From: a virus
Taxonomy: Duplodnaviria > Heunggongvirae > Uroviricota > Caudoviricetes
IMG/VR virus record: IMGVR_UViG_2547132272_000009
DNA: 14,765 nt
Reading direction: 5' to 3' (one strand)
Below the pieces are notes generated by a model. The model was not told the DNA's origin, did no database searches, and worked only from the letters and a program-made list of their open reading frames with translations. Shown here in pieces: positions 6,215 through 14,657 of this stretch. Numbering within the stretch: the stretch's first letter is position 1; each line of letters starts with the position of its first letter. A program made the position numbers and the translations under genes.

Positions 6215-6832
6215 TTAAATTAAAAACAGGCCGCACGGTTTGCCGATTTCCCAGACAACGTTACCACCATCCTCTTTTTTCACCGTCAGGTTTCCGTCAA
6301 CTGAAACCATCAGCAGCTTAATATCCACTTTCGGATTAGCGCCGGGTGATCCTGAATAAACATCAACCATGTTTTTCGTCAGATCCCACACAAAACCACT
6401 GGCAGCAACGGTGTTATTTCCATCAGCCAGCGCAACAACTTCTGCACTGACAGGGAGAGGAATGCGGGCACCTGAGCCAACGCGATAATAGTGAACAAAG
6501 CCACCCGCGAGATATAACGGCACCGGATTATCCGGCGTGGTAATGCCATGAAATGCCTGATTAAAGACAGTAAAGGCGTTACAGGCGTCCTTCGTGGCTT
6601 GTTTAATTACCGCGCCGTTAACGCTGTCTTTCGCGGGAGCAATGCACTCCATAACTCCAACGCCACCCCATACCGGTTCAGTGATTTTGCTGTCCAGTCT
6701 ACCGGAGCAAAGTTGCAGACGAATTGCCGGATCATCCTGCGCATCCCCCTGCATCAGCCCACGGGATTCGACGTTAAAAAGGCCACCAAATGCCCCACGG
6801 TTTTTAAACGGATGAAAGTTAATATCAGCCAT
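6215..6832 (-). CDS. Hypothetical head-module protein (205 aa)
   Basis: ORF between the scaffold-like and capsid genes, with an 8-nt overlap with the upstream gene. No recognisable motif. Confidence 0.45.
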   Translation of the reverse strand: MADINFHPFKNRGAFGGLFNVESRGLMQGDAQDDPAIRLQLCSGRLDSKITEPVWGGVGVMECIAPAKDSVNGAVIKQATKDACNAFTVFNQAFHGITTPDNPVPLYLAGGFVHYYRVGSGARIPLPVSAEVVALADGNNTVAASGFVWDLTKNMVDVYSGSPGANPKVDIKLLMVSVDGNLTVKKEDGGNVVWEIGKPCGLFLI

Positions 6833-8147
6833 TGTTCAGGCTCCCTTGAGTGTTAATTTTTGCCAGACGACGCCCCGGAATTTTGAAAGCACTCAGCCAG
6901 ACGTTCGGATCGCCCTGATATTCAGTAATGCGACGTCCGGCTTCATCGTTGCGGATACGTTTATGCAGTTGCCCCTGCGTACTCATCATTTCTTTTTCGA
7001 TGGACTGACGAGCGGCACTGAAAATTGCGTCCTCAAGCACAGCCAGCGTTGCAGAATCCGCAATCGCGCGAATATTGACGTCCTTATGTGCCGGAGAGTG
7101 TTTCTGCATAGCGATTAGCGCACGCTTGCGGTAGTCCAGCACATTTTCACCAGAAAACGGTGCTGGCGCGTTTTTACCGCAGGCACTGAATGCGGAGTCG
7201 GCTTTTGCCTGCGCTTCTGCCAGGGCAGAATCATTGCGTTCTTTTTCTGCCTCCTCGTCGGCCTTACGCTGTTCTTCTGCTTCGGAATCAGCCTTTGCTT
7301 TCTCCTCAGCGTCTTTGGCTGCTGCCTCGTCAGCTTTGACTTTTTCTTCTGCCTCCTTTGCCGCAGCTTCATCAGCTTTACGCTGTTCCTCTGCGGCTTC
7401 ATCGGCTTTGGCCTTTTCTTCGGCCTCTTTTTTCGCCTGTTCTTCGGCATCCGCCCGCGCTTTGTCCCGCTGTTCCAGTGAGTCCATGCGCGTAACGACA
7501 CCATCGATTTTCTGATTAATGCCTTTCAGGGCATCGCTCACAACCCCCTGTAACAGGGCCTGGAGTTCTTCTTTTTCCATCTCAATTTCACCTGTATTTG
7601 TCACTTCAACCCCTGCGGGGATCCGGTCTTTATCCCACACGCCCAGCGAGCCGTGGGCTTTCGTCACCAGAGCGATGTGATCAACAAGGAAAGGAACGCC
7701 CTCGATTAAAAAATTGGTGTCACCTTCCTGTACTTCCACATTTCCTGATGTGCTGTTGAACACCACCGACGGACTTGTCGAAACATCCCCCTCAGTGATT
7801 TCTTCAACAATGCTCTGGAGGTAAACGCGGCACACCGCCCATACCTCGTCACCCCGGATATACGGCAGCATGACACTGCCGACGATCCGCGATTTAAAAT
7901 CCTCCTCCGTCAGAACTGCGTCGTCAGGATGGTTTGCGATAACCGGAAGGCCATTGCATCGCCTTAAAAACTCCTCACTCAGATAGAGCTTTGGATCACG
8001 CCATACGTGCTCTTTCAGCCCGGCGCGATAGGCGAGCCCGGTTCCGGTTATTCGCAAATTCACCAGCCACATGTTGGAGAATTTCACCGGGGACGGTACG
8101 GTTCCGTCCCTGATGCGTTCTGCCACTTCAAGCTCGGTTAAACTCAC
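6825..8147 (-). CDS. Putative scaffolding (possibly protease-scaffold) protein with an Ala/Glu/Lys-rich repeat domain
   Basis: Lies between the head-morphogenesis-like gene and the capsid gene. Central region is an imperfect KADEAA-type tandem repeat predicted to be highly helical, as in phage scaffolds. No protease catalytic residues identified by eye. Confidence 0.5.
   Translation of the reverse strand: MSLTELEVAERIRDGTVPSPVKFSNMWLVNLRITGTGLAYRAGLKEHVWRDPKLYLSEEFLRRCNGLPVIANHPDDAVLTEEDFKSRIVGSVMLPYIRGDEVWAVCRVYLQSIVEEITEGDVSTSPSVVFNSTSGNVEVQEGDTNFLIEGVPFLVDHIALVTKAHGSLGVWDKDRIPAGVEVTNTGEIEMEKEELQALLQGVVSDALKGINQKIDGVVTRMDSLEQRDKARADAEEQAKKEAEEKAKADEAAEEQRKADEAAAKEAEEKVKADEAAAKDAEEKAKADSEAEEQRKADEEAEKERNDSALAEAQAKADSAFSACGKNAPAPFSGENVLDYRKRALIAMQKHSPAHKDVNIRAIADSATLAVLEDAIFSAARQSIEKEMMSTQGQLHKRIRNDEAGRRITEYQGDPNVWLSAFKIPGRRLAKINTQGSLNNG
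7195..7460. repeat. Imperfect tandem repeats of about 30-42 bp encoding KADEAAxxEAEEK units
   Basis: Recurring motifs on the plus strand (gcctttgc/ggctttgg, ttcttctgc, tcagcttt). The repeat composition creates spurious long ORFs in the other frames (7115..7504 on minus, 7234..7515 on plus). Confidence 0.6.
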
Positions 8148-10361: not shown

Positions 10362-11690
10362 TTACAATTCCGCGTAATTACCGTGCGCGATGATCAATCC
10401 ATAGGTGTAACAATCGAAAAGGTCATCAGCACGTTTATGCGCATCTTTGTCTGCCAGGTGGAACCCGGCGATTTGTTTTATGAGGTGGTTTGCGGTGGTG
10501 CGTTTGAATGAAACGGTCTTGTCGTAAGCCTCCCGGACGATTTTGCACATCCCCTGATAGTGGTAGCTGGATGCCATCACCGCCCGTTCGTCTTTGCCCT
10601 TGCTGGTTAGTGCCGATTTAATCGGCGTCATATCCCAGCCTTCGGTTTCCGCCTTCTGGTTGAGGATTGCCCCCATCGCGGCGTCTTCCATAAAAATTCC
10701 CTGGCTGCCCAGACGCGGACGGCATAATTTCGCGAGGCGCTCGAGGTTGTCATAAACGCCGGGGATATATTCAGGAAGCAATGACGCTTTAATTTGCGTC
10801 ACATCCCAGTCAATAATCGTCAGTTTTGGCTCGTCCGAATACGTTGACTCATAAGCGAAATACACCACGCCAGTACCATCATTTTCGGTCCCGCCTTTCA
10901 ACGCCGTATCCATCACTGCGAAAATCATGTCGCAGTACGGCGGCATCTCAATTGGTTGACCGTCCACCAGCAGCTTATCGACATCGAGTAACGCGTCTTT
11001 GGACCAGTCCACGAACTCGGCAAGATATTCCTGCTGCCAGACGCGCGGATCGGATTTCTTCTCCGTTTCCTCCAGTTCTTCTTTCGGAATATACGGATTC
11101 GATGAAGTTGGCGCATGGTGCATGACAAATCCCAGGGATTCATCGTGGCATATCGCGTAGAAAAAATTGCTCTCGTCGATACCGTTTGGTGTGGAAAATA
11201 CCCACGCACAGCCGCGGTAATCGACAAGCGTCGGGCGTATAGCGCGGGGCCAGATTTCCTCGAGCATTTCCGGCGATTTAGTGAATGCGGCCTCATCAAT
11301 CAGCACAGCGTGATATTTACGCCCACGCCCGGCCAGTTTGTTATTGTCCGTTACCCAAAAGTCGATGCGCCCCCCATTACGGAGAATGATGCGCTTTTCA
11401 TTTTTTGACTGACTGAGGATCAGCGGTTGCAGAACGGCGCTAATTTCATCCCAGATTTCCTGGTACTGGCGGTATTGCGCGGTAAAAATCCCCACCCTAC
11501 CCGCGATAAGTTGCCCGGTGGTAGGAATGGCAAATTTCCGCGTAGCGAAACTGGTAGCGATGTTCACCAGCATCACCGTTTTACCCCAGCGACGACCACA
11601 GCATACCGCGTGGAAGCGTTCCTCTATTGCCGCCGTCCATGCAGCTATTTGCCCCTCATGAGGTTTTGGGAGGTAGATTTCAATCGACAT
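10362..11690 (-). CDS. terL: Terminase large subunit (ATPase plus nuclease)
   Basis: Walker A-like CCGRRWGKT near the N-terminus, Walker B-like HAVLIDEAAF, and C-terminal acidic motifs typical of the RNase H-like terminase nuclease (AVMDTALKGG..DGTG, HLADKDAHKRADDLFD). Position between the small terminase and the portal-like gene. Confidence 0.9.
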   Translation of the reverse strand: MSIEIYLPKPHEGQIAAWTAAIEERFHAVCCGRRWGKTVMLVNIATSFATRKFAIPTTGQLIAGRVGIFTAQYRQYQEIWDEISAVLQPLILSQSKNEKRIILRNGGRIDFWVTDNNKLAGRGRKYHAVLIDEAAFTKSPEMLEEIWPRAIRPTLVDYRGCAWVFSTPNGIDESNFFYAICHDESLGFVMHHAPTSSNPYIPKEELEETEKKSDPRVWQQEYLAEFVDWSKDALLDVDKLLVDGQPIEMPPYCDMIFAVMDTALKGGTENDGTGVVYFAYESTYSDEPKLTIIDWDVTQIKASLLPEYIPGVYDNLERLAKLCRPRLGSQGIFMEDAAMGAILNQKAETEGWDMTPIKSALTSKGKDERAVMASSYHYQGMCKIVREAYDKTVSFKRTTANHLIKQIAGFHLADKDAHKRADDLFDCYTYGLIIAHGNYAEL

Positions 11691-12747
11691 TATCCACTCC
11701 CGGCATCGGCAGAGAGTTGTGGATAATTATTTCGTTATTCTCACCACCCACGCCTTTTTTGAGGTTTTCAATCTCAGTGCGCAGCTTTTCGTTGCGAAGC
11801 CTCAGTCCTTCAAGCTCCAGATCATTGCGACTGTCAGTTGCACCACCAGCAGAACTTCCTTTCGTCGCCATTATCAGCTTGATAAGTTCGCGCCGGGCGG
11901 CAGCCTTATCCTCCAGCAGGATCTCAACACCAAATTTCCCGAGCTTTGCCCCTGCATATAATTGCCGCGCATCCCCATCAAGCAGAGTGGTATCAGCCAT
12001 ATAAAGCTGCCCCGTTCCCTCACCGCAGCACTTCGGGCAGTCCGGATTGGGTATGGCGTTATCAACAAAGCCGAGGCCTCCATATTCCGGCTCGGGTTTG
12101 CCATCTCTGGAGGCCTGTGCCGCTGCCTTATCGAATTCTGCAATATCACGCCACTGGTAGAGGTGATTCTCGCCCCAGCAATAACGGCAGTTAACACGGC
12201 GAAATTGTGCCAACTGATTGGGGTCGGCCTGGACAATGGCCATCAACTGACTCACCAGTAAATCCAGGTCTGCGGTATAGCGTTTCTGGTACTGATTGCG
12301 AAACCAGGAAATAGCTCTGTAAACCTTAATATTTCTTAATAACTGACTTGCACCTGCGCTTGCCGCATTCCCCTCAGATTTATACCCAGCCAGGCGGTAT
12401 GCTTCGATGAGGTTTTTACCCTGAGCAACCAGCATCGCAAACTTTGCTTGCTGGTCTGAAATGCCGAATTCAGTGGGATCGAATGAAATTTCCTGGTCGT
12501 TTCCTGTAACAGGAGGGACAACAACCACGGACTTCTTTTTCTCAGTTTTTTGCGTTCGCTTTTGCGCACTTTTTTGCGCAGTTTTGCGCAATTCTGCCTG
12601 CGCATTTTTCGGAGGTTTTTTGATGTAACGACGGGCTGTTGCGTAATTCAGTCCCCTTGCTTCACACCATGCCACCGGAGATATACCGGAGCGGGTGTAT
12701 TCAGCAATATACTCCTGCTGCAACGCCCCCCAGTCCGGTCTGCTCAT
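11680..12747 (-). CDS. terS: Terminase small subunit (N-terminal HTH, terminase-small-like core, internal Cys4 cluster, C-terminal coiled coil)
   Basis: Directly upstream of and overlapping the large terminase by 11 nt. N-terminal HTH (ISPVAWCEARGLNYATARRYIKK). Segment DQQAKFAMLVAQGKNLIEAYRLAGYKSEGNAASAGASQLLRNIKVYRAISWFRNQ resembles small-terminase (Terminase_2-type) cores. CRYC ... CPKCC cysteines. 355 aa is long for a small terminase. Confidence 0.7.
   Translation of the reverse strand: MSRPDWGALQQEYIAEYTRSGISPVAWCEARGLNYATARRYIKKPPKNAQAELRKTAQKSAQKRTQKTEKKKSVVVVPPVTGNDQEISFDPTEFGISDQQAKFAMLVAQGKNLIEAYRLAGYKSEGNAASAGASQLLRNIKVYRAISWFRNQYQKRYTADLDLLVSQLMAIVQADPNQLAQFRRVNCRYCWGENHLYQWRDIAEFDKAAAQASRDGKPEPEYGGLGFVDNAIPNPDCPKCCGEGTGQLYMADTTLLDGDARQLYAGAKLGKFGVEILLEDKAAARRELIKLIMATKGSSAGGATDSRNDLELEGLRLRNEKLRTEIENLKKGVGGENNEIIIHNSLPMPGVDNVD
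12546..12609. repeat. Phased direct repeats of TTTTGCGCA (3 full copies plus 1 partial) inside terS
   Basis: TTTTGCGCA at 12560-12568, 12572-12580 and 12582-12590, with CTGCGCATTTTT at 12598-12609. Spacing of 10-12 bp is roughly one helical turn. Encodes the AQK-repeat basic linker of TerS. Confidence 0.6.
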
Positions 12748-12750
12748 CAG

Positions 12751-13002
12751 TTAGTCCTGATTTTTATCCACCCTGAGTAGTTCGCGCAGGGCAAAGGCAT
12801 CCCCTTTTCTGGCAAGCTTAAACAATGCCGCCCGTAGCTCGGCTTCACCTTTCGCTCTGCCCTTACGGATGGACGCATAAAAATTTGTCATTGCTTCCCG
12901 ATTTTCTTTCAGTCGGTTCAGATCAACATCCAGAACGTCAGCTATTTGTTGTGCAGTCATCCGGCACGCTGCCAGAGACTCGACTTTCGAATACGGAATC
13001 AT
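12751..13002 (-). CDS. Small DNA-binding (HTH-like) protein, 83 aa
   Basis: ORF immediately upstream of terS. Segment MTAQQIADVLDVDLNRL looks like a helix-turn-helix. GGGGGTGA Shine-Dalgarno-like sequence 5-10 nt upstream of the ATG at 13000-13002. Overlaps the 3' end of the upstream gene. Confidence 0.5.
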   Translation of the reverse strand: MIPYSKVESLAACRMTAQQIADVLDVDLNRLKENREAMTNFYASIRKGRAKGEAELRAALFKLARKGDAFALRELLRVDKNQD

Positions 13003-13870
13003 TTGTCACCCCCATTGATATGCAGGGTGTCTTCTTCCTGTATTTTTCGTGAAGGATTTTTACTGCAGCATTGTTCCAGGTGACCTGATGGTGAATGCGT
13101 TTATGGCTGGCCCCCATCAGTGCGATTTTCACGCACGACGGCGCATACATGACAGAGTAAAAACTTTTAACGTAGGTACCGGAATCCAGATACAGTTCGG
13201 TCATGCCACCGCTGTTTTTTTGCGTCTGCTTCTGGCCCAACTGGACGGCGCCAACCGTCATAAACAGTTCACCACACCGTCCGAGGTTCGTGTATGTGTT
13301 CACGTCCTCATTAATGCGCCCCATGAATGAGAACGGTCGGTCAACCGAACAGATAAAGCTGTTCATTGCCTTGCGTTTCACCCACGAAGCATGGCCGCCA
13401 TTGTCACCAAGAAAATCCCCGCCCTGCGACATAGCGATGGAAAGCGCAGGAATTGATTCGTAATACGCCAGCATTTCAGAAAGGATCGCATCAAGTTTCC
13501 TTATCGGAAAATAGGCCTGGTCATAGTTGCGATCCACCCGAAACTGAAACTCGTGATAATCATCATCGAGCTGAATGAAGTATTTACACCCGACCTTTTT
13601 TGCCAGGTCAAAACAGGCATTACGGGCGTAAAAAATTGAGCGACGATCACCGAAATTATCGGCTTCGTCAAAACGACTGGCGATATCGGCTTTGGAAAAC
13701 ACCAGCACCTGTTCACCAAATTCTGCTATGTACTGATGCCGGGTTTTATCTTCATCATCAACAACGATAAAAACTTTCCCGGTATAGCCAGCACGACGCA
13801 ACGTCCGGTAAGTCAGAACTTTGTCCGGACGCCCGTGAGTCAGAATAAAGGCGCAAAAATCATCACGCAT
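12938..13870 (-). CDS. Putative GT-A fold glycosyltransferase-like protein (about 310 aa from the ATG at 13868-13870; the track's longer ORF starts at 13891)
   Basis: N-terminal pattern FCAFILTHGRPDK ... KVFIVVDDEDKT and a hydrophobic strand followed by DxD (YFIQLDDDYHEF) resemble the GT2/GT-A nucleotide-sugar-binding region. No obvious transmembrane segment. The ATG at 13870 is preceded by GGAGGAGGAGG and overlaps the end of the upstream reading frame (ATGCGTGATG), suggesting translational coupling. Fold assignment is by eye only. Confidence 0.5.
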   Translation of the reverse strand: MRDDFCAFILTHGRPDKVLTYRTLRRAGYTGKVFIVVDDEDKTRHQYIAEFGEQVLVFSKADIASRFDEADNFGDRRSIFYARNACFDLAKKVGCKYFIQLDDDYHEFQFRVDRNYDQAYFPIRKLDAILSEMLAYYESIPALSIAMSQGGDFLGDNGGHASWVKRKAMNSFICSVDRPFSFMGRINEDVNTYTNLGRCGELFMTVGAVQLGQKQTQKNSGGMTELYLDSGTYVKSFYSVMYAPSCVKIALMGASHKRIHHQVTWNNAAVKILHEKYRKKTPCISMGVTNDSVFESRVSGSVPDDCTTNS

Positions 13871-14126
13871 ATTCCTCCTCCTCCCCGCCATGCATGATCT
13901 CCACCATGCGCTGCGTCATCCGGACAAATCCATTTTCAATAGCCTGCTGATAATCAATGATCACCAGCGCCGACTCCTCAAAAAGGCTCTGAATTTCAGC
14001 GGGGGCGTGAGCGTAATAGTCCGCAATTCTGCTGAAATTAAACACCGTGTGACGTTCTGCCGCGCACAGGAGGAATTTTTCGATATCAGGCTCAAGGGAC
14101 GCCGAACGTATCCGGCTGACCAGCTC
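13863..14126 (-). pseudogene. In-frame continuation of the ParB-like gene beyond the TAG (88 codons, ends GGEEEEYA, TGA at 13863-13865)
   Basis: Same frame as 14127..14657 (14657-14045=612, divisible by 3). Hand translation of 14126..14046 gives ELVSRIRSASLEPDIEKFLLCAAERHTV with no stop, then runs into the track ORF 13863..14045. That ORF only has a GTG start and no Shine-Dalgarno, so it is unlikely to be an independent gene. Whether this is a nonsense mutation, suppressed amber or readthrough cannot be told from sequence. Confidence 0.45.
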
Positions 14127-14657
14127 CTAAGTTTTCGTATCGTCGTACAGTTCACTGATATCCGGTTTATCGCCTGACGGCTCATAAACAGGCGTATCAA
14201 TTTTCGTCGTGTACGGTTCCTCCTCATTATTTCCTGTACCGGGCAAAACATCCGTCAACAGTTCATCAATTTCTGTCGGGCTAAATCCTGTCAGGGAGAT
14301 ATCAAAATCAGCATTGATTAGGTCCGACAGCTCCATCCGTAACAGATCTTCATCCCAGCCAGCGTTGAGCGGCAGGCGATTATCTGCCAGGCGGTACGCC
14401 TTTTTCTGATCATCCGTCAGGCCAGACAGAACAATGACCGGAACAGAATCCATTTTGAGCACCTCAGCCGCCATCACGCGACCGTGACCAGCAATAATTT
14501 CGCCCTTTTCGTCAATCAGCACCGGATTGGTCCAGCCGAATTGCTTAATGCTTTCTACCAGTTGTGCCACCTGCTCAGGGCTGTGTGTCCTGGCGTTGTG
14601 CGCATACGGAGACAGTTTTTGTAACGGGCGATAGACGATCTTCAATTTCTCGCTCAT
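14127..14657 (-). CDS. ParB-like nuclease domain protein, N-terminal part (176 aa), ends at an in-frame TAG
   Basis: N-terminal region KIVYRPLQKLSPYAHNARTHSPEQVAQLVESIKQFGWTNPVLIDEKGEIIAGHGRVMAAEVLKMDSVPVIVL matches the ParB/sulfiredoxin-type nuclease domain pattern (NxR...SI...G...P.....G....I.GHGR). ATG at 14655-14657. Stop is TAG at 14127-14129, the only in-frame TAG terminating any predicted gene in the window. Confidence 0.8.
   Translation of the reverse strand: MSEKLKIVYRPLQKLSPYAHNARTHSPEQVAQLVESIKQFGWTNPVLIDEKGEIIAGHGRVMAAEVLKMDSVPVIVLSGLTDDQKKAYRLADNRLPLNAGWDEDLLRMELSDLINADFDISLTGFSPTEIDELLTDVLPGTGNNEEEPYTTKIDTPVYEPSGDKPDISELYDDTKT

What the first reader, a model, noticed from the sequence alone, without database searches (positions are those of the whole stretch)
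12546..12609. Helically phased TTTTGCGCA repeats inside terS: candidate pac / TerS recognition site
Three exact TTTTGCGCA copies at 10-12 bp spacing plus a fourth TGCGCA followed by a T-run lie within the 5' part of terS. Each unit pairs a T-tract with the palindromic hexamer TGCGCA. In several pac-type phages the packaging recognition site sits inside the small terminase gene, and phased T-tracts bend DNA. The repeats also encode the AQK-repeat basic linker, so they may simply reflect protein repetition.
Basis: partly seen in the sequence, partly recalled or inferred. Interest (0 to 1): 0.4.

Follow-up and report, generated by a model that had tools for sequence, protein, structure and literature searches.

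The report
Phage packaging-site repeats inside terS
A cluster of TGCGCA hexamers inside a prophage's small-terminase gene is kept by selection on the DNA itself and travels with a DNA-binding helix encoded just upstream, so it is most likely the site where this phage family starts packaging its genome, built like the phage P1 pac site but with a different hexamer.

Summary
Four exact TGCGCA hexamers and one degenerate copy lie at 12551-12604, inside the 5' part of terS (11680-12747, minus strand).

They are not a by-product of an AQK peptide repeat:
- In 130 distinct relatives the hexamer sits in all three reading frames.
- The Ala codon is GCG in 96% of cases, against 25% elsewhere in the same genes.
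- The preceding wobble base is T in 96%, although 12 different amino acids are encoded there.

Every intact relative sampled by close similarity keeps 3-10 copies just downstream of an N-terminal helix-turn-helix.
- Helix ARR[YH][IV]K goes with TGCGCA (116/116).
- Helix AKRYIK goes with TGCGAA (13/13).
- A Stx-phage allele, ARTRIK, goes with YGATCA.

That N-terminal domain aligns with phage P1 PacA residues 3-41 (hhalign probability 92%). The experimentally defined P1 pac site is an array of TGATCA/G hexamers at the same place in pacA.

Best reading: a P1-type pac recognition array read by the TerS N-terminal domain. It lacks Dam sites, an IHF site and a second cluster. Helical phasing is only approximate and is not conserved. 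Packaging initiation itself was not tested; that needs virion-end mapping. I rate it a new variant of a known kind.

The parts
11680..12747 (-). terS, small terminase subunit, 355 aa. It is 100% identical to an E. coli prophage protein (P0121).
   Evidence: ORF and translation. Pfam Terminase_2 5.2e-9, above the gathering score. phrog_51 'terminase small subunit' 1.3e-64. Identical E. coli protein.
12616..12747 (-). Codons for the N-terminal add-on helix-turn-helix domain (aa 1-44), PacA-like.
   Evidence: AlphaFold2 gives three helices with pLDDT 74-86. hhalign of a 65-sequence family profile against P1 PacA 3-41 gives probability 91.6%, E 8e-7. The domain profile finds 342 cluster representatives, almost always at the N-terminus. 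There is a weak IS66 TnpA-like HTH match, 22 bits, below cut-off.
12619..12645 (-). Codons for the putative recognition helix Y-A-T-A-R-R-Y-I-K (aa 35-43).
   Evidence: A38, R40, Y41, I42 and K43 are invariant in the A3 and A5 alignments; across the wider family (A2) R40 and Y41 are only nearly invariant. Residue 39 (R or K) tracks hexamer identity in 129 of 129 genes.
12599..12604 (.). Hexamer 1, TGCGCA. Reading frame T|GCG|CA, encoding N-A-Q.
12585..12590 (.). Hexamer 2, TGCGCA. It is out of frame relative to the others: TTG|CGC|A, encoding L-R-K.
   Evidence: The same out-of-frame copy ([LMV]-R) is seen 117 times in relatives.
12575..12580 (.). Hexamer 3, TGCGCA, encoding T-A-Q.
12563..12568 (.). 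Hexamer 4, TGCGCA, encoding S-A-Q.
12551..12556 (.). Degenerate fifth copy (AACGCA on the coding strand), 12 bp after hexamer 4.
   Evidence: Relative to E. coli relatives with six copies, the window has a 24-bp in-array deletion.
12463..12615 (-). Codons for the predicted disordered linker (aa 45-95) between the add-on HTH and the terminase core. The hexamer array lies in its first part.
   Evidence: AlphaFold2 pLDDT is below 50 for aa 50-84. Linker length varies by hexamer copy number among near-identical proteins of 351-364 aa.
11839..12453 (-). Terminase_2 core of TerS (aa 99-303), with its own canonical HTH.
   Evidence: Pfam stretch 99-303. pLDDT 80-87 for aa 90-150. The best Foldseek matches are the SF6 G1P DNA-binding domain 4zc3/2cmp (TM 0.70 on the target, E 1.3, not significant).
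10362..11690 (-). terL, large terminase subunit, the nuclease/ATPase expected to cut near the array.
   Evidence: Pfam Terminase_6N 4.8e-5. phrog_2 'terminase large subunit' 1.2e-35.

Best explanation
The array of TGCGCA hexamers is the recognition part of this prophage's pac site, where headful DNA packaging starts.

Proposed mechanism: TerS carries an extra N-terminal helix-turn-helix domain on a long flexible linker, homologous to the N-terminus of phage P1 PacA. Several of these domains, displayed by the TerS oligomer, bind the 3-6 closely spaced hexamers. The hexamers lie in the DNA that encodes that same linker. The bound complex positions TerL to make the first cut nearby, and packaging proceeds by the headful mechanism.

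Shown here:
- The hexamers are under DNA-level selection.
- They are tied to the adjacent HTH domain.
- Their sequence changes with the recognition helix.
- The domain is PacA-like.

Inferred:
- Physical binding of the HTH to the hexamers.
- Cutting nearby.
- Use of the site as the packaging start.
For: (1) DNA-level selection.
- In 130 distinct intact relatives the hexamer is used in all three frames: A-Q/H 472, [LMV]-R 117, C-A 29.
- In a set non-redundant at 85% identity, Ala in A-[QH] is GCG in 189/197, against 233/949 elsewhere in the same genes.
- The base before it is T in 190/197 against 287/949 background, while 12 different residues are encoded there.
- A Gallibacterium member encodes N-C-E repeats with the same DNA motif as S-A-N repeats elsewhere.

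(2) Localisation. TGCGCA density is 43.4/kb in gene nt 121-230, against 2.8/kb in the rest of terS and 0.19-0.45/kb in the flanks. Each of these 130 intact genes keeps 3-10 copies.

(3) Link to the HTH.
- Helix ARR[YH][IV]K goes with TGCGCA in 116/116 genes; AKRYIK goes with TGCGAA or TGCGAATTCGCA in 13/13.
- In Stx phages the same gene body carries either ARRYIK with TGCGCA or ARTRIK with YGATCA.
- R- and K-type genes share at least 97% identical DNA for nt 1-105 and diverge from the recognition helix onward. The K cassette is joined to at least 4 different terminase bodies.
- In an unselected scan of viral contigs for three TGCGCA copies with 1-10 nt gaps, 73 of 120 loci have this domain within 500 nt.
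- A TerS with a related core but no N-terminal domain (PEAT2) has no hexamer.

(4) Precedent. The family profile aligns to P1 PacA 3-41 (probability 91.6%). P1 pac consists of seven TGATCA/G hexamers inside pacA (gene nt 193-351 by my count) with cuts at about nt 276-285. Synonymous recoding of those hexamers lowers P1 titre about 9-fold (PMC10028697).

(5) The array encodes a predicted disordered linker (pLDDT below 50). This leaves sequence freedom for a DNA signal.
Against: - There is no direct evidence of packaging initiation, cleavage or binding for any TGCGCA- or TGCGAA-type member. No paper in the searched library links TGCGCA to a pac site.
- The window and its class have a single cluster, whereas P1 has two clusters flanking the cut.
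- No IHF consensus was found in gene nt 1-520, and there is no GATC in the array.
- Helix and array are only about 20-30 bp apart, so part of the covariation could reflect linkage.
- P1 PacA also has A-R-R-Y yet uses TGATCA, so residue 39 is not the only determinant.
- Three divergent members with an ARRYIK helix, chosen because their linkers lack AQ repeats, have no TGCGCA array at all.
- Pairwise BLASTP to PacA is weak (E 0.095).
- The TerS core is Terminase_2, not PacA-like.
Confidence: 0.7

Rival explanations
1. The DNA repeats are only a by-product of a repetitive, basic, low-complexity linker (AQK repeats) selected at the protein level, or of neutral slippage.
For: The array encodes NAQAELRKTAQKSAQKRTQK in a predicted disordered, lysine-rich linker. 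Copy number changes by unequal recombination among close relatives.
Against: One of three exact copies in the window is in another frame. All three frames are used family-wide, and synonymous positions are fixed: GCG 96% against 25%, preceding T 96% against 30%. Unrelated peptides (AQ, LR, CA; AN, CE) carry the same DNA motif.
Confidence: 0.03
2. The hexamers are bound by the TerS N-terminal domain, but for a purpose other than pac recognition. Examples are autoregulation of terS/terL expression by a roadblock inside the gene, or cis-loading of TerS.
For: The same covariation and linkage data show only a helix-site relationship, not what binding achieves. The window class lacks the second cluster, the IHF site and the Dam sites of P1 pac.
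Against: The homologous P1 arrangement is an experimentally defined pac site. The domain is found almost only at the N-terminus of small terminases of several unrelated body types. Arrays of 3-10 sites fit binding by a ring-shaped oligomer better than a simple operator.
Confidence: 0.15
3. The hexamers are read by another protein: the 83-aa HTH-like protein encoded just upstream (12751-13002), a host factor, or a DNA methyltransferase or restriction system that targets TGCGCA or GCGC.
For: The upstream ORF looks like a small HTH protein and matches part of a 'terminase small subunit' PHROG (phrog_309, 2.5e-22). In P1 the hexamers are also methylation sites. A ParB-like gene and a glycosyltransferase-like gene lie upstream.
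Against: Other classes with the same arrays have lysis genes, not this ORF, upstream of terS. Hexamer identity follows the TerS helix, not the neighbourhood. No methyltransferase was seen in the window.
Confidence: 0.07
4. The palindromic hexamers act at the RNA level, or as DNA cruciforms. Hairpins between neighbouring copies would modulate translation or slippage on the A-runs.
For: The mRNA folds into two hairpins that pair hexamers 1-2 and 3-4 (-20.6 kcal/mol). Many database copies are truncated or frameshifted in or just after the A-rich array.
Against: The z-score is only -1.87, and 9 of 200 shuffles fold as well. Spacing between copies varies from 7 to 16 nt. TGCGAA arrays are not palindromic, and one has six copies all in one orientation (L171).
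Confidence: 0.03

Closest known systems
Phage P1 pac site and PacA (HEX4/HEX3 arrays of TGATCA/G inside pacA)
   Same: Several copies of a palindromic hexamer at irregular 7-16 bp spacing, inside the 5' part of the small-terminase gene, just downstream of the codons for an N-terminal HTH. That HTH aligns with the one here (hhalign probability 91.6%). Hexamers occupy more than one reading frame in both.
   Different: - The hexamer is TGCGCA, so there are no Dam (GATC) sites and no methylation control.
- There is one cluster rather than two flanking a cut.
- No IHF consensus was found.
- The rest of TerS is a Terminase_2 protein, not PacA-like.
- The phage is an integrated myovirus-type prophage rather than a P1-like plasmid prophage.
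SPP1/SF6 G1P small terminase (Pfam Terminase_2) with pacL/pacR
   Same: The TerS core belongs to the same Pfam family, and its own HTH resembles the SF6 DNA-binding domain. These are headful pac phages whose pac overlaps the start of the terS gene (PMC9611059).
   Different: G1P has no extra N-terminal domain or long linker, and its binding to pac is weak and largely sequence-independent in vitro. Here a dedicated add-on domain with a short repeated target appears to supply the specificity.
P22 and Sf6 pac sites inside the small-terminase gene
   Same: The pac recognition sequence is embedded in the terS coding sequence (PMC9611059).
   Different: P22 uses one asymmetric 22-bp sequence, not an array of short repeats. 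Those TerS proteins belong to other families.
Lambda cosB R-sites bound by the gpNu1 winged HTH (from general knowledge, not tested here)
   Same: Repeated short sites next to the cut site are read by an N-terminal HTH of the small terminase.
   Different: Lambda is a cos system with a defined nick site and IHF-assisted bending. Its sites lie outside the coding sequence, and there is no sequence relationship.

Membership tests
P1-type pac site | Several copies of one hexamer within the 5' part of the small-terminase gene | tested here: met
   Four exact copies plus one degenerate copy at gene nt 144-197. P1 hexamers lie at gene nt 193-351.
P1-type pac site | Two hexamer clusters (HEX4 and HEX3) flanking the cleavage region | tested here: not met
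   The window and its class (355-378 aa) have a single cluster. A second cluster at about nt 347-397 exists only in the 320-335 aa class.
P1-type pac site | Hexamers contain GATC, so that Dam methylation controls cleavage | tested here: not met
   TGCGCA has no GATC, and the nearest GATC is at 12477. The Stx-phage allele of the same family does use YGATCA.
P1-type pac site | IHF binding site next to the cut | tested here: not met
   No match to WATCAANNNNTTR with at most 1 mismatch in gene nt 1-520 on either strand. This is a consensus scan only.
P1-type pac site | Small terminase with a PacA-type N-terminal HTH | tested here: met
   hhalign of the family profile against PacA 3-41: probability 91.6%, E 8e-7, 39 columns. 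Pairwise BLASTP is weak (E 0.095).
P1-type pac site | Terminase cuts at the site and packaging starts there | not testable with these tools
   This needs virion DNA end mapping or an in vivo cleavage assay.
PacA/PacB terminase (P1) | Full-length similarity of the small subunit to PacA | tested here: not met
   Only the N-terminal roughly 40 residues align. The remainder is Pfam Terminase_2.
Terminase_2 small terminase (SPP1/SF6 G1P type) | Pfam PF03592 match above the gathering score | tested here: met
   37.3 bits against a cut-off of 26.1, aa 99-303.
Terminase_2 small terminase (SPP1/SF6 G1P type) | SF6-like HTH DNA-binding domain at the start of the core | tested here: inconclusive
   The top Foldseek hits are 4zc3 and 2cmp (TM 0.70 on the target, rmsd 2.3 A, 53 columns), but E is 1.3. 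The sequence match to solved small terminases is weak (E 0.19).
Headful (pac) packaging phage | Large terminase of a headful type; circularly permuted, terminally redundant virion DNA | tested here: inconclusive
   TerL matches Terminase_6N (T4-type N-terminal domain) only just above cut-off (23.5 against 22). There is no NCBIfam or PDB sequence match.

The most novel reading that the evidence does not exclude
The recognition helix and its hexamer array may form a portable specificity cassette. This cassette would be exchanged by recombination among unrelated small-terminase bodies across Enterobacterales, Vibrio and Pasteurellaceae, re-programming which DNA a phage packages.

A near one-to-one code is visible from sequence alone. 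Helix residue 39 R pairs with hexamer base 5 C, K pairs with A, and a third allele pairs with GATC-containing hexamers.

The site is written into the codons of the disordered linker that tethers the very domain that reads it. If true, pac specificity could be predicted and engineered for a prophage family present in about 17% of complete E. coli genomes.
Probability: 0.5. Interest if true: 0.75.

Novelty: new variant of a known kind. Interest (0 to 1): 0.62.

Why it matters
How pac-type small terminases pick out their own DNA is still described as unclear. Binding to known pac sites is weak and largely sequence-independent in vitro (review PMC9611059). Here a dedicated small domain, a short repeated target and natural specificity variants (TGCGCA, TGCGAA, YGATCA) are visible from sequence alone. 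That gives a directly testable recognition system.

The module is common. A 401-bp stretch spanning it matches 915 of 5,426 complete E. coli genomes. It is also found in prophages of Klebsiella, Salmonella, Proteus, Providencia, Yersinia, Serratia, Pantoea and others.

Knowing the pac site matters for three reasons. It helps predict generalized and lateral transduction from these prophages. It helps design packaging-competent phagemids. And it shows how to cripple packaging of a helper phage, as was done for P1 by recoding its hexamers.

Tried and rejected
- Pairwise BLASTP of TerS against P1 PacA gave only a 12-residue match (E 0.095). The link needed a profile comparison.
- Literature searches for TGCGCA with 'pac site' or 'terminase', and for repeats in E. 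coli prophage terminases, found nothing on this family. A search for the related phage names returned only unrelated papers, and one search failed on a term that was too short.
- A search with the N-terminal alignment in the 90%-clustered protein database returned mostly 44-88 aa fragments and did not reach PacA.
- A search for a second, P1-like hexamer cluster in the window class found none.
- The IHF consensus scan found nothing.
- The RNA hairpin idea gave z -1.87, and the pairing is not conserved.
- PDB sequence searches for TerL and TerS gave no usable match. NCBIfam gave no TerL family.
- The P1-relative loci from IMG/VR were all 95-98% identical to P1, so they were uninformative for variation.
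- No phage record in the collections starts at or near the array, so database records give no hint of physical ends.
- I considered treating the mosaic boundary after the array, and the truncated 75-aa relics, as evidence of cutting there. I rejected this as anecdotal.

Full report
**What is there.** All genes in the window run on the minus strand and form a phage late operon:
- a ParB-like gene,
- a glycosyltransferase-like gene,
- an 83-aa ORF,
- terS (11680-12747),
- terL (10362-11690),
- portal, head morphogenesis, protease/scaffold-like and capsid-like genes,
- a tail sheath.

TerS is 355 aa and matches Pfam Terminase_2 over aa 99-303, above the gathering score. It is 100% identical to an E. 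coli prophage protein.
- TTTTGCGCA on the + strand at 12560, 12572 and 12582;
- TGCGCA at 12599, followed by T5;
- a degenerate copy at 12551-12556.

Four non-overlapping copies of one hexamer within 50 bp occur nowhere else in the window and in none of 300 dinucleotide-preserving shuffles.

**Reading frame in the window.** On the coding strand the copies read AAT GCG CAG / TTG CGC AAA / ACT GCG CAA / AGT GCG CAA. One of the three exact 9-mers is therefore in a different frame (L-R-K) from the other two (A-Q-K). This was the first sign that the DNA word, not the peptide, is what is kept.

**Relatives.**
- Close E. coli relatives carry up to six copies. A 401-bp stretch around the array matches 915 of 5,426 complete genomes.
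- The window has a 24-bp in-array deletion relative to six-copy relatives.
- Near-identical proteins of 351-364 aa differ mainly by having three to six copies.
- A tblastn search showed that the first roughly 45 residues of TerS form a separate module. It is shared by small terminases of quite different body types in Yersinia, Klebsiella, Providencia, Escherichia and Stx phages.
- I collected 160 further loci from viral contigs and from one genome per species. After removing duplicates, 130 intact genes remained.

**Selection acts on the DNA.** In these 130 genes the dominant hexamer just after the module is TGCGCA or TGCGAA.
- It occurs in all three reading frames: 472 as x-A-Q/H, 117 as [LMV]-R, 29 as C-A.
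- In a subset non-redundant at 85% DNA identity (65 genes), Ala in A-[Q/H] dipeptides of the linker is GCG in 189 of 197 cases. Elsewhere in the same genes it is GCG in 233 of 949.
- The third base of the preceding codon is T in 190 of 197 cases against 287 of 949 for the background, although that codon specifies 12 different amino acids.
- A Gallibacterium member encodes N-C-E repeats with the same DNA word that elsewhere encodes S-A-N.
- TGCGCA density is 43 per kb in gene nt 121-230, 2.8 per kb in the rest of terS and 0.2-0.45 per kb in the flanks.
- Each of these 130 intact genes has 3-10 copies, most often five.

**The word follows the helix.**
- All 116 genes whose putative recognition helix reads A-R-R-[Y/H]-[I/V]-K carry TGCGCA.
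- All 13 with A-K-R-Y-I-K carry TGCGAA, often as the 12-bp palindrome TGCGAATTCGCA.
- In Stx-converting phages one gene body occurs with either of two heads. One is T-A-R-R-Y-I-K-L with four or five TGCGCA. The other is T-A-R-T-R-I-K-M with four or five YGATCA. A downstream pair of TGCGCA is retained in both.
- R- and K-type genes can share at least 97% identical DNA over nt 1-105 and then diverge completely from the helix codons onward.
- The two types are interleaved on a tree of residues 1-36, which gives 8 parsimony changes, though the tree is poorly resolved.
- The K-type head is joined to at least four different terminase bodies that are also found with R-type heads.

So helix and array move together as a cassette. 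Because they are only 20-30 bp apart, linkage contributes to this pattern. Even so, the arrays are otherwise very fluid in copy number, spacing, frame and spacer sequence, while the hexamer itself is held.

In the reverse direction, I scanned viral contigs without selection for three TGCGCA copies separated by 1-10 nt. Of 120 loci, 73 have this domain within 500 nt. A related terminase core without the domain (PEAT2) has no hexamer.

**Structure.** AlphaFold2, with an alignment that is rich for the N-terminus, gives:
- three helices for aa 1-45 (pLDDT 74-86);
- a low-confidence segment at aa 50-84 (pLDDT below 50);
- a confident core from aa 90.

The array (aa 48-66) thus encodes the start of a probably disordered tether. 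The best structural matches of the model are the SF6 G1P small-terminase DNA-binding domain (TM 0.70 on the target, E not significant). This fits the Terminase_2 core having its own generic HTH, with the N-terminal domain as an add-on. The add-on is faintly IS66 TnpA-like. Its profile finds 342 cluster representatives in 1.8 billion proteins, nearly always at the N-terminus.

**Comparison with P1.** A profile of the add-on domain aligns to P1 PacA residues 3-41 with 91.6% probability. Both end in N-x-x-T-A-R-R-Y-[IL]-[KR].

In the P1 record, pacA carries TGATC[AG] at gene nt 193, 200, 212 and 227, and at 323, 335 and 346. These fall in two reading frames. The annotated cuts lie at about nt 276-285, with an IHF site beside them. 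A recent paper summarises the 161-bp P1 pac site as seven TGATCA/G hexamers (HEX4, HEX3) bound by PacA/PacB. It also shows that synonymous recoding of them lowers P1 titre about 9-fold (PMC10028697).

The arrangement here matches in position relative to the HTH codons, in hexamer size, in irregular 7-16 bp spacing and in the use of several frames. The YGATCA allele in Stx phages bridges the two.

**Differences and doubts.**
- The window class has one cluster, not two.
- There is no GATC in the array, so Dam control as in P1 is impossible.
- There is no IHF consensus.
- The terminase body is Terminase_2, not PacA-like.
- Spacing is not helically phased in the family. In the window the A-tracts recur about every 11.3 bp, so some intrinsic curvature is possible but was not tested.
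- P1 PacA shares A-R-R-Y yet reads TGATCA, so residue 39 is not the sole determinant.
- Three divergent members with an ARRYIK helix, picked because their linkers lack AQ, have no array.
- No experiment on any TGCGCA-type member was found. The TerL type does not by itself prove headful packaging.

**Rivals.**
- A pure peptide repeat is excluded by the frame and codon counts.
- An RNA hairpin role is weak (z -1.87; the pairing is not conserved).
- A different reader protein, such as the 83-aa HTH-like ORF upstream, is unlikely. Other classes with the same arrays lack that ORF.
- The serious rival is that TerS binds the array for some purpose other than starting packaging. Only end-mapping or pac-plasmid assays can separate the two.

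**Verdict.** The feature is real and functional at the DNA level. It is best explained as a P1-type pac recognition array read by a PacA-like N-terminal domain of TerS (confidence about 0.7). It is a new variant of a known kind. The review literature still calls pac recognition by small terminases unclear. This family offers natural specificity variants that make the question directly testable.

Noticed in passing
window 12938-13891 (-) and 14127-14657 (-): A TET-associated-glycosyltransferase-like gene (Pfam TAGT 1e-35; phrog_842 'beta-glucosyl-HMC-alpha-glucosyltransferase' 2.9e-103) and a ParB-like nuclease-domain gene sit directly upstream of the terminase genes. The same trio (ParB/Srx protein, roughly 310-aa hypothetical, small ORF) precedes terS in the E. 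coli relatives. This may be a DNA-modification module. No TET or methyltransferase gene was seen in the window.
   Followed up: partly
window 12751-13002 (-): An 83-aa ORF ends 4 nt before the terS start. It looks like a small HTH protein (…MTAQQIADVLDVDLNRL…) and matches positions 145-218 of phrog_309 'terminase small subunit' (2.5e-22). It has no Pfam or NCBIfam hit. It may be a third packaging component in this class, and it is absent upstream of terS in the other classes.
   Followed up: partly
window 12546-12609; proteins P0121-P0237: Hexamer copy number is polymorphic among near-identical E. coli and Salmonella TerS proteins (351, 355, 357, 359-361, 363 and 364 aa, giving three to six copies). 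This is consistent with unequal recombination within the array. None was seen with fewer than three copies.
   Followed up: yes
L002 (ETEC1747), L068, L107, L125, L135, L136, L164, L168, L177, L178; fragments P0001-P0120: Many database copies of terS are frameshifted or truncated within or just after the A-rich array (A6-A9 runs). The protein databases hold hundreds of 44-88 aa 'HTH plus linker' fragments. These could be sequencing errors, decay in defective prophages, or real slippage that produces a short isoform. This was not resolved.
   Followed up: partly
L438-L440 (Enterobacter), locus nt 1501-1728: A 75-aa relic of a terS head lies upstream of lysis-gene fragments. In L439 and L440 it also lies upstream of a second, intact terS. 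The relic has lost two of its three hexamers (TACGCA, CACGCA), whereas the intact gene downstream in L439 keeps four TGCGCA copies.
   Followed up: partly
L016, L179-L217 (Stx2a-converting phages), gene nt about 138-190 and 234-263: The Stx-phage terS allele with helix TARTRIKM has four or five YGATCA hexamers (I-D-H repeats). Each contains a Dam site, as in P1 pac. It still carries two TGCGCA copies further downstream, shared with the TARRYIKL allele. This looks like a head swap that left the old right-hand elements in place.
   Followed up: partly
L009, L011, L072-L086 and other 320-335 aa terS genes, gene nt 347-397: A second group of two or three TGCGCA copies lies about 170-200 bp after the first array, inside codons for the conserved peptide VAQAIAQQQ of the Terminase_2 core. 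This is reminiscent of P1's HEX3 cluster. It could not be separated from protein conservation.
   Followed up: no
window 11778-11783: A lone TGCGCA lies near the 3' end of terS (gene nt 965-970, codons L-R-T). It sits at the equivalent position in all close relatives. These are too similar to one another to tell whether it is selected.
   Followed up: no
window 12019-12189 (terS aa 187-243): The Terminase_2 core carries an insertion with a four-cysteine pattern (C-R-Y-C … C-P-K-C-C), suggesting a zinc ribbon. The model has low confidence there.
   Followed up: no
window 7287-7379: A 42-bp tandem repeat (2.2 copies, 75% matches, TRF score 98) lies inside the 440-aa ORF 6825-8147. That ORF is weakly similar to head maturation protease/scaffold families.
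   Followed up: no
P0342, P0358, P0363, P0378, P0379: A few proteins contain four to eight tandem copies of the N-terminal HTH-like domain rather than one. Their context was not examined.
   Followed up: no
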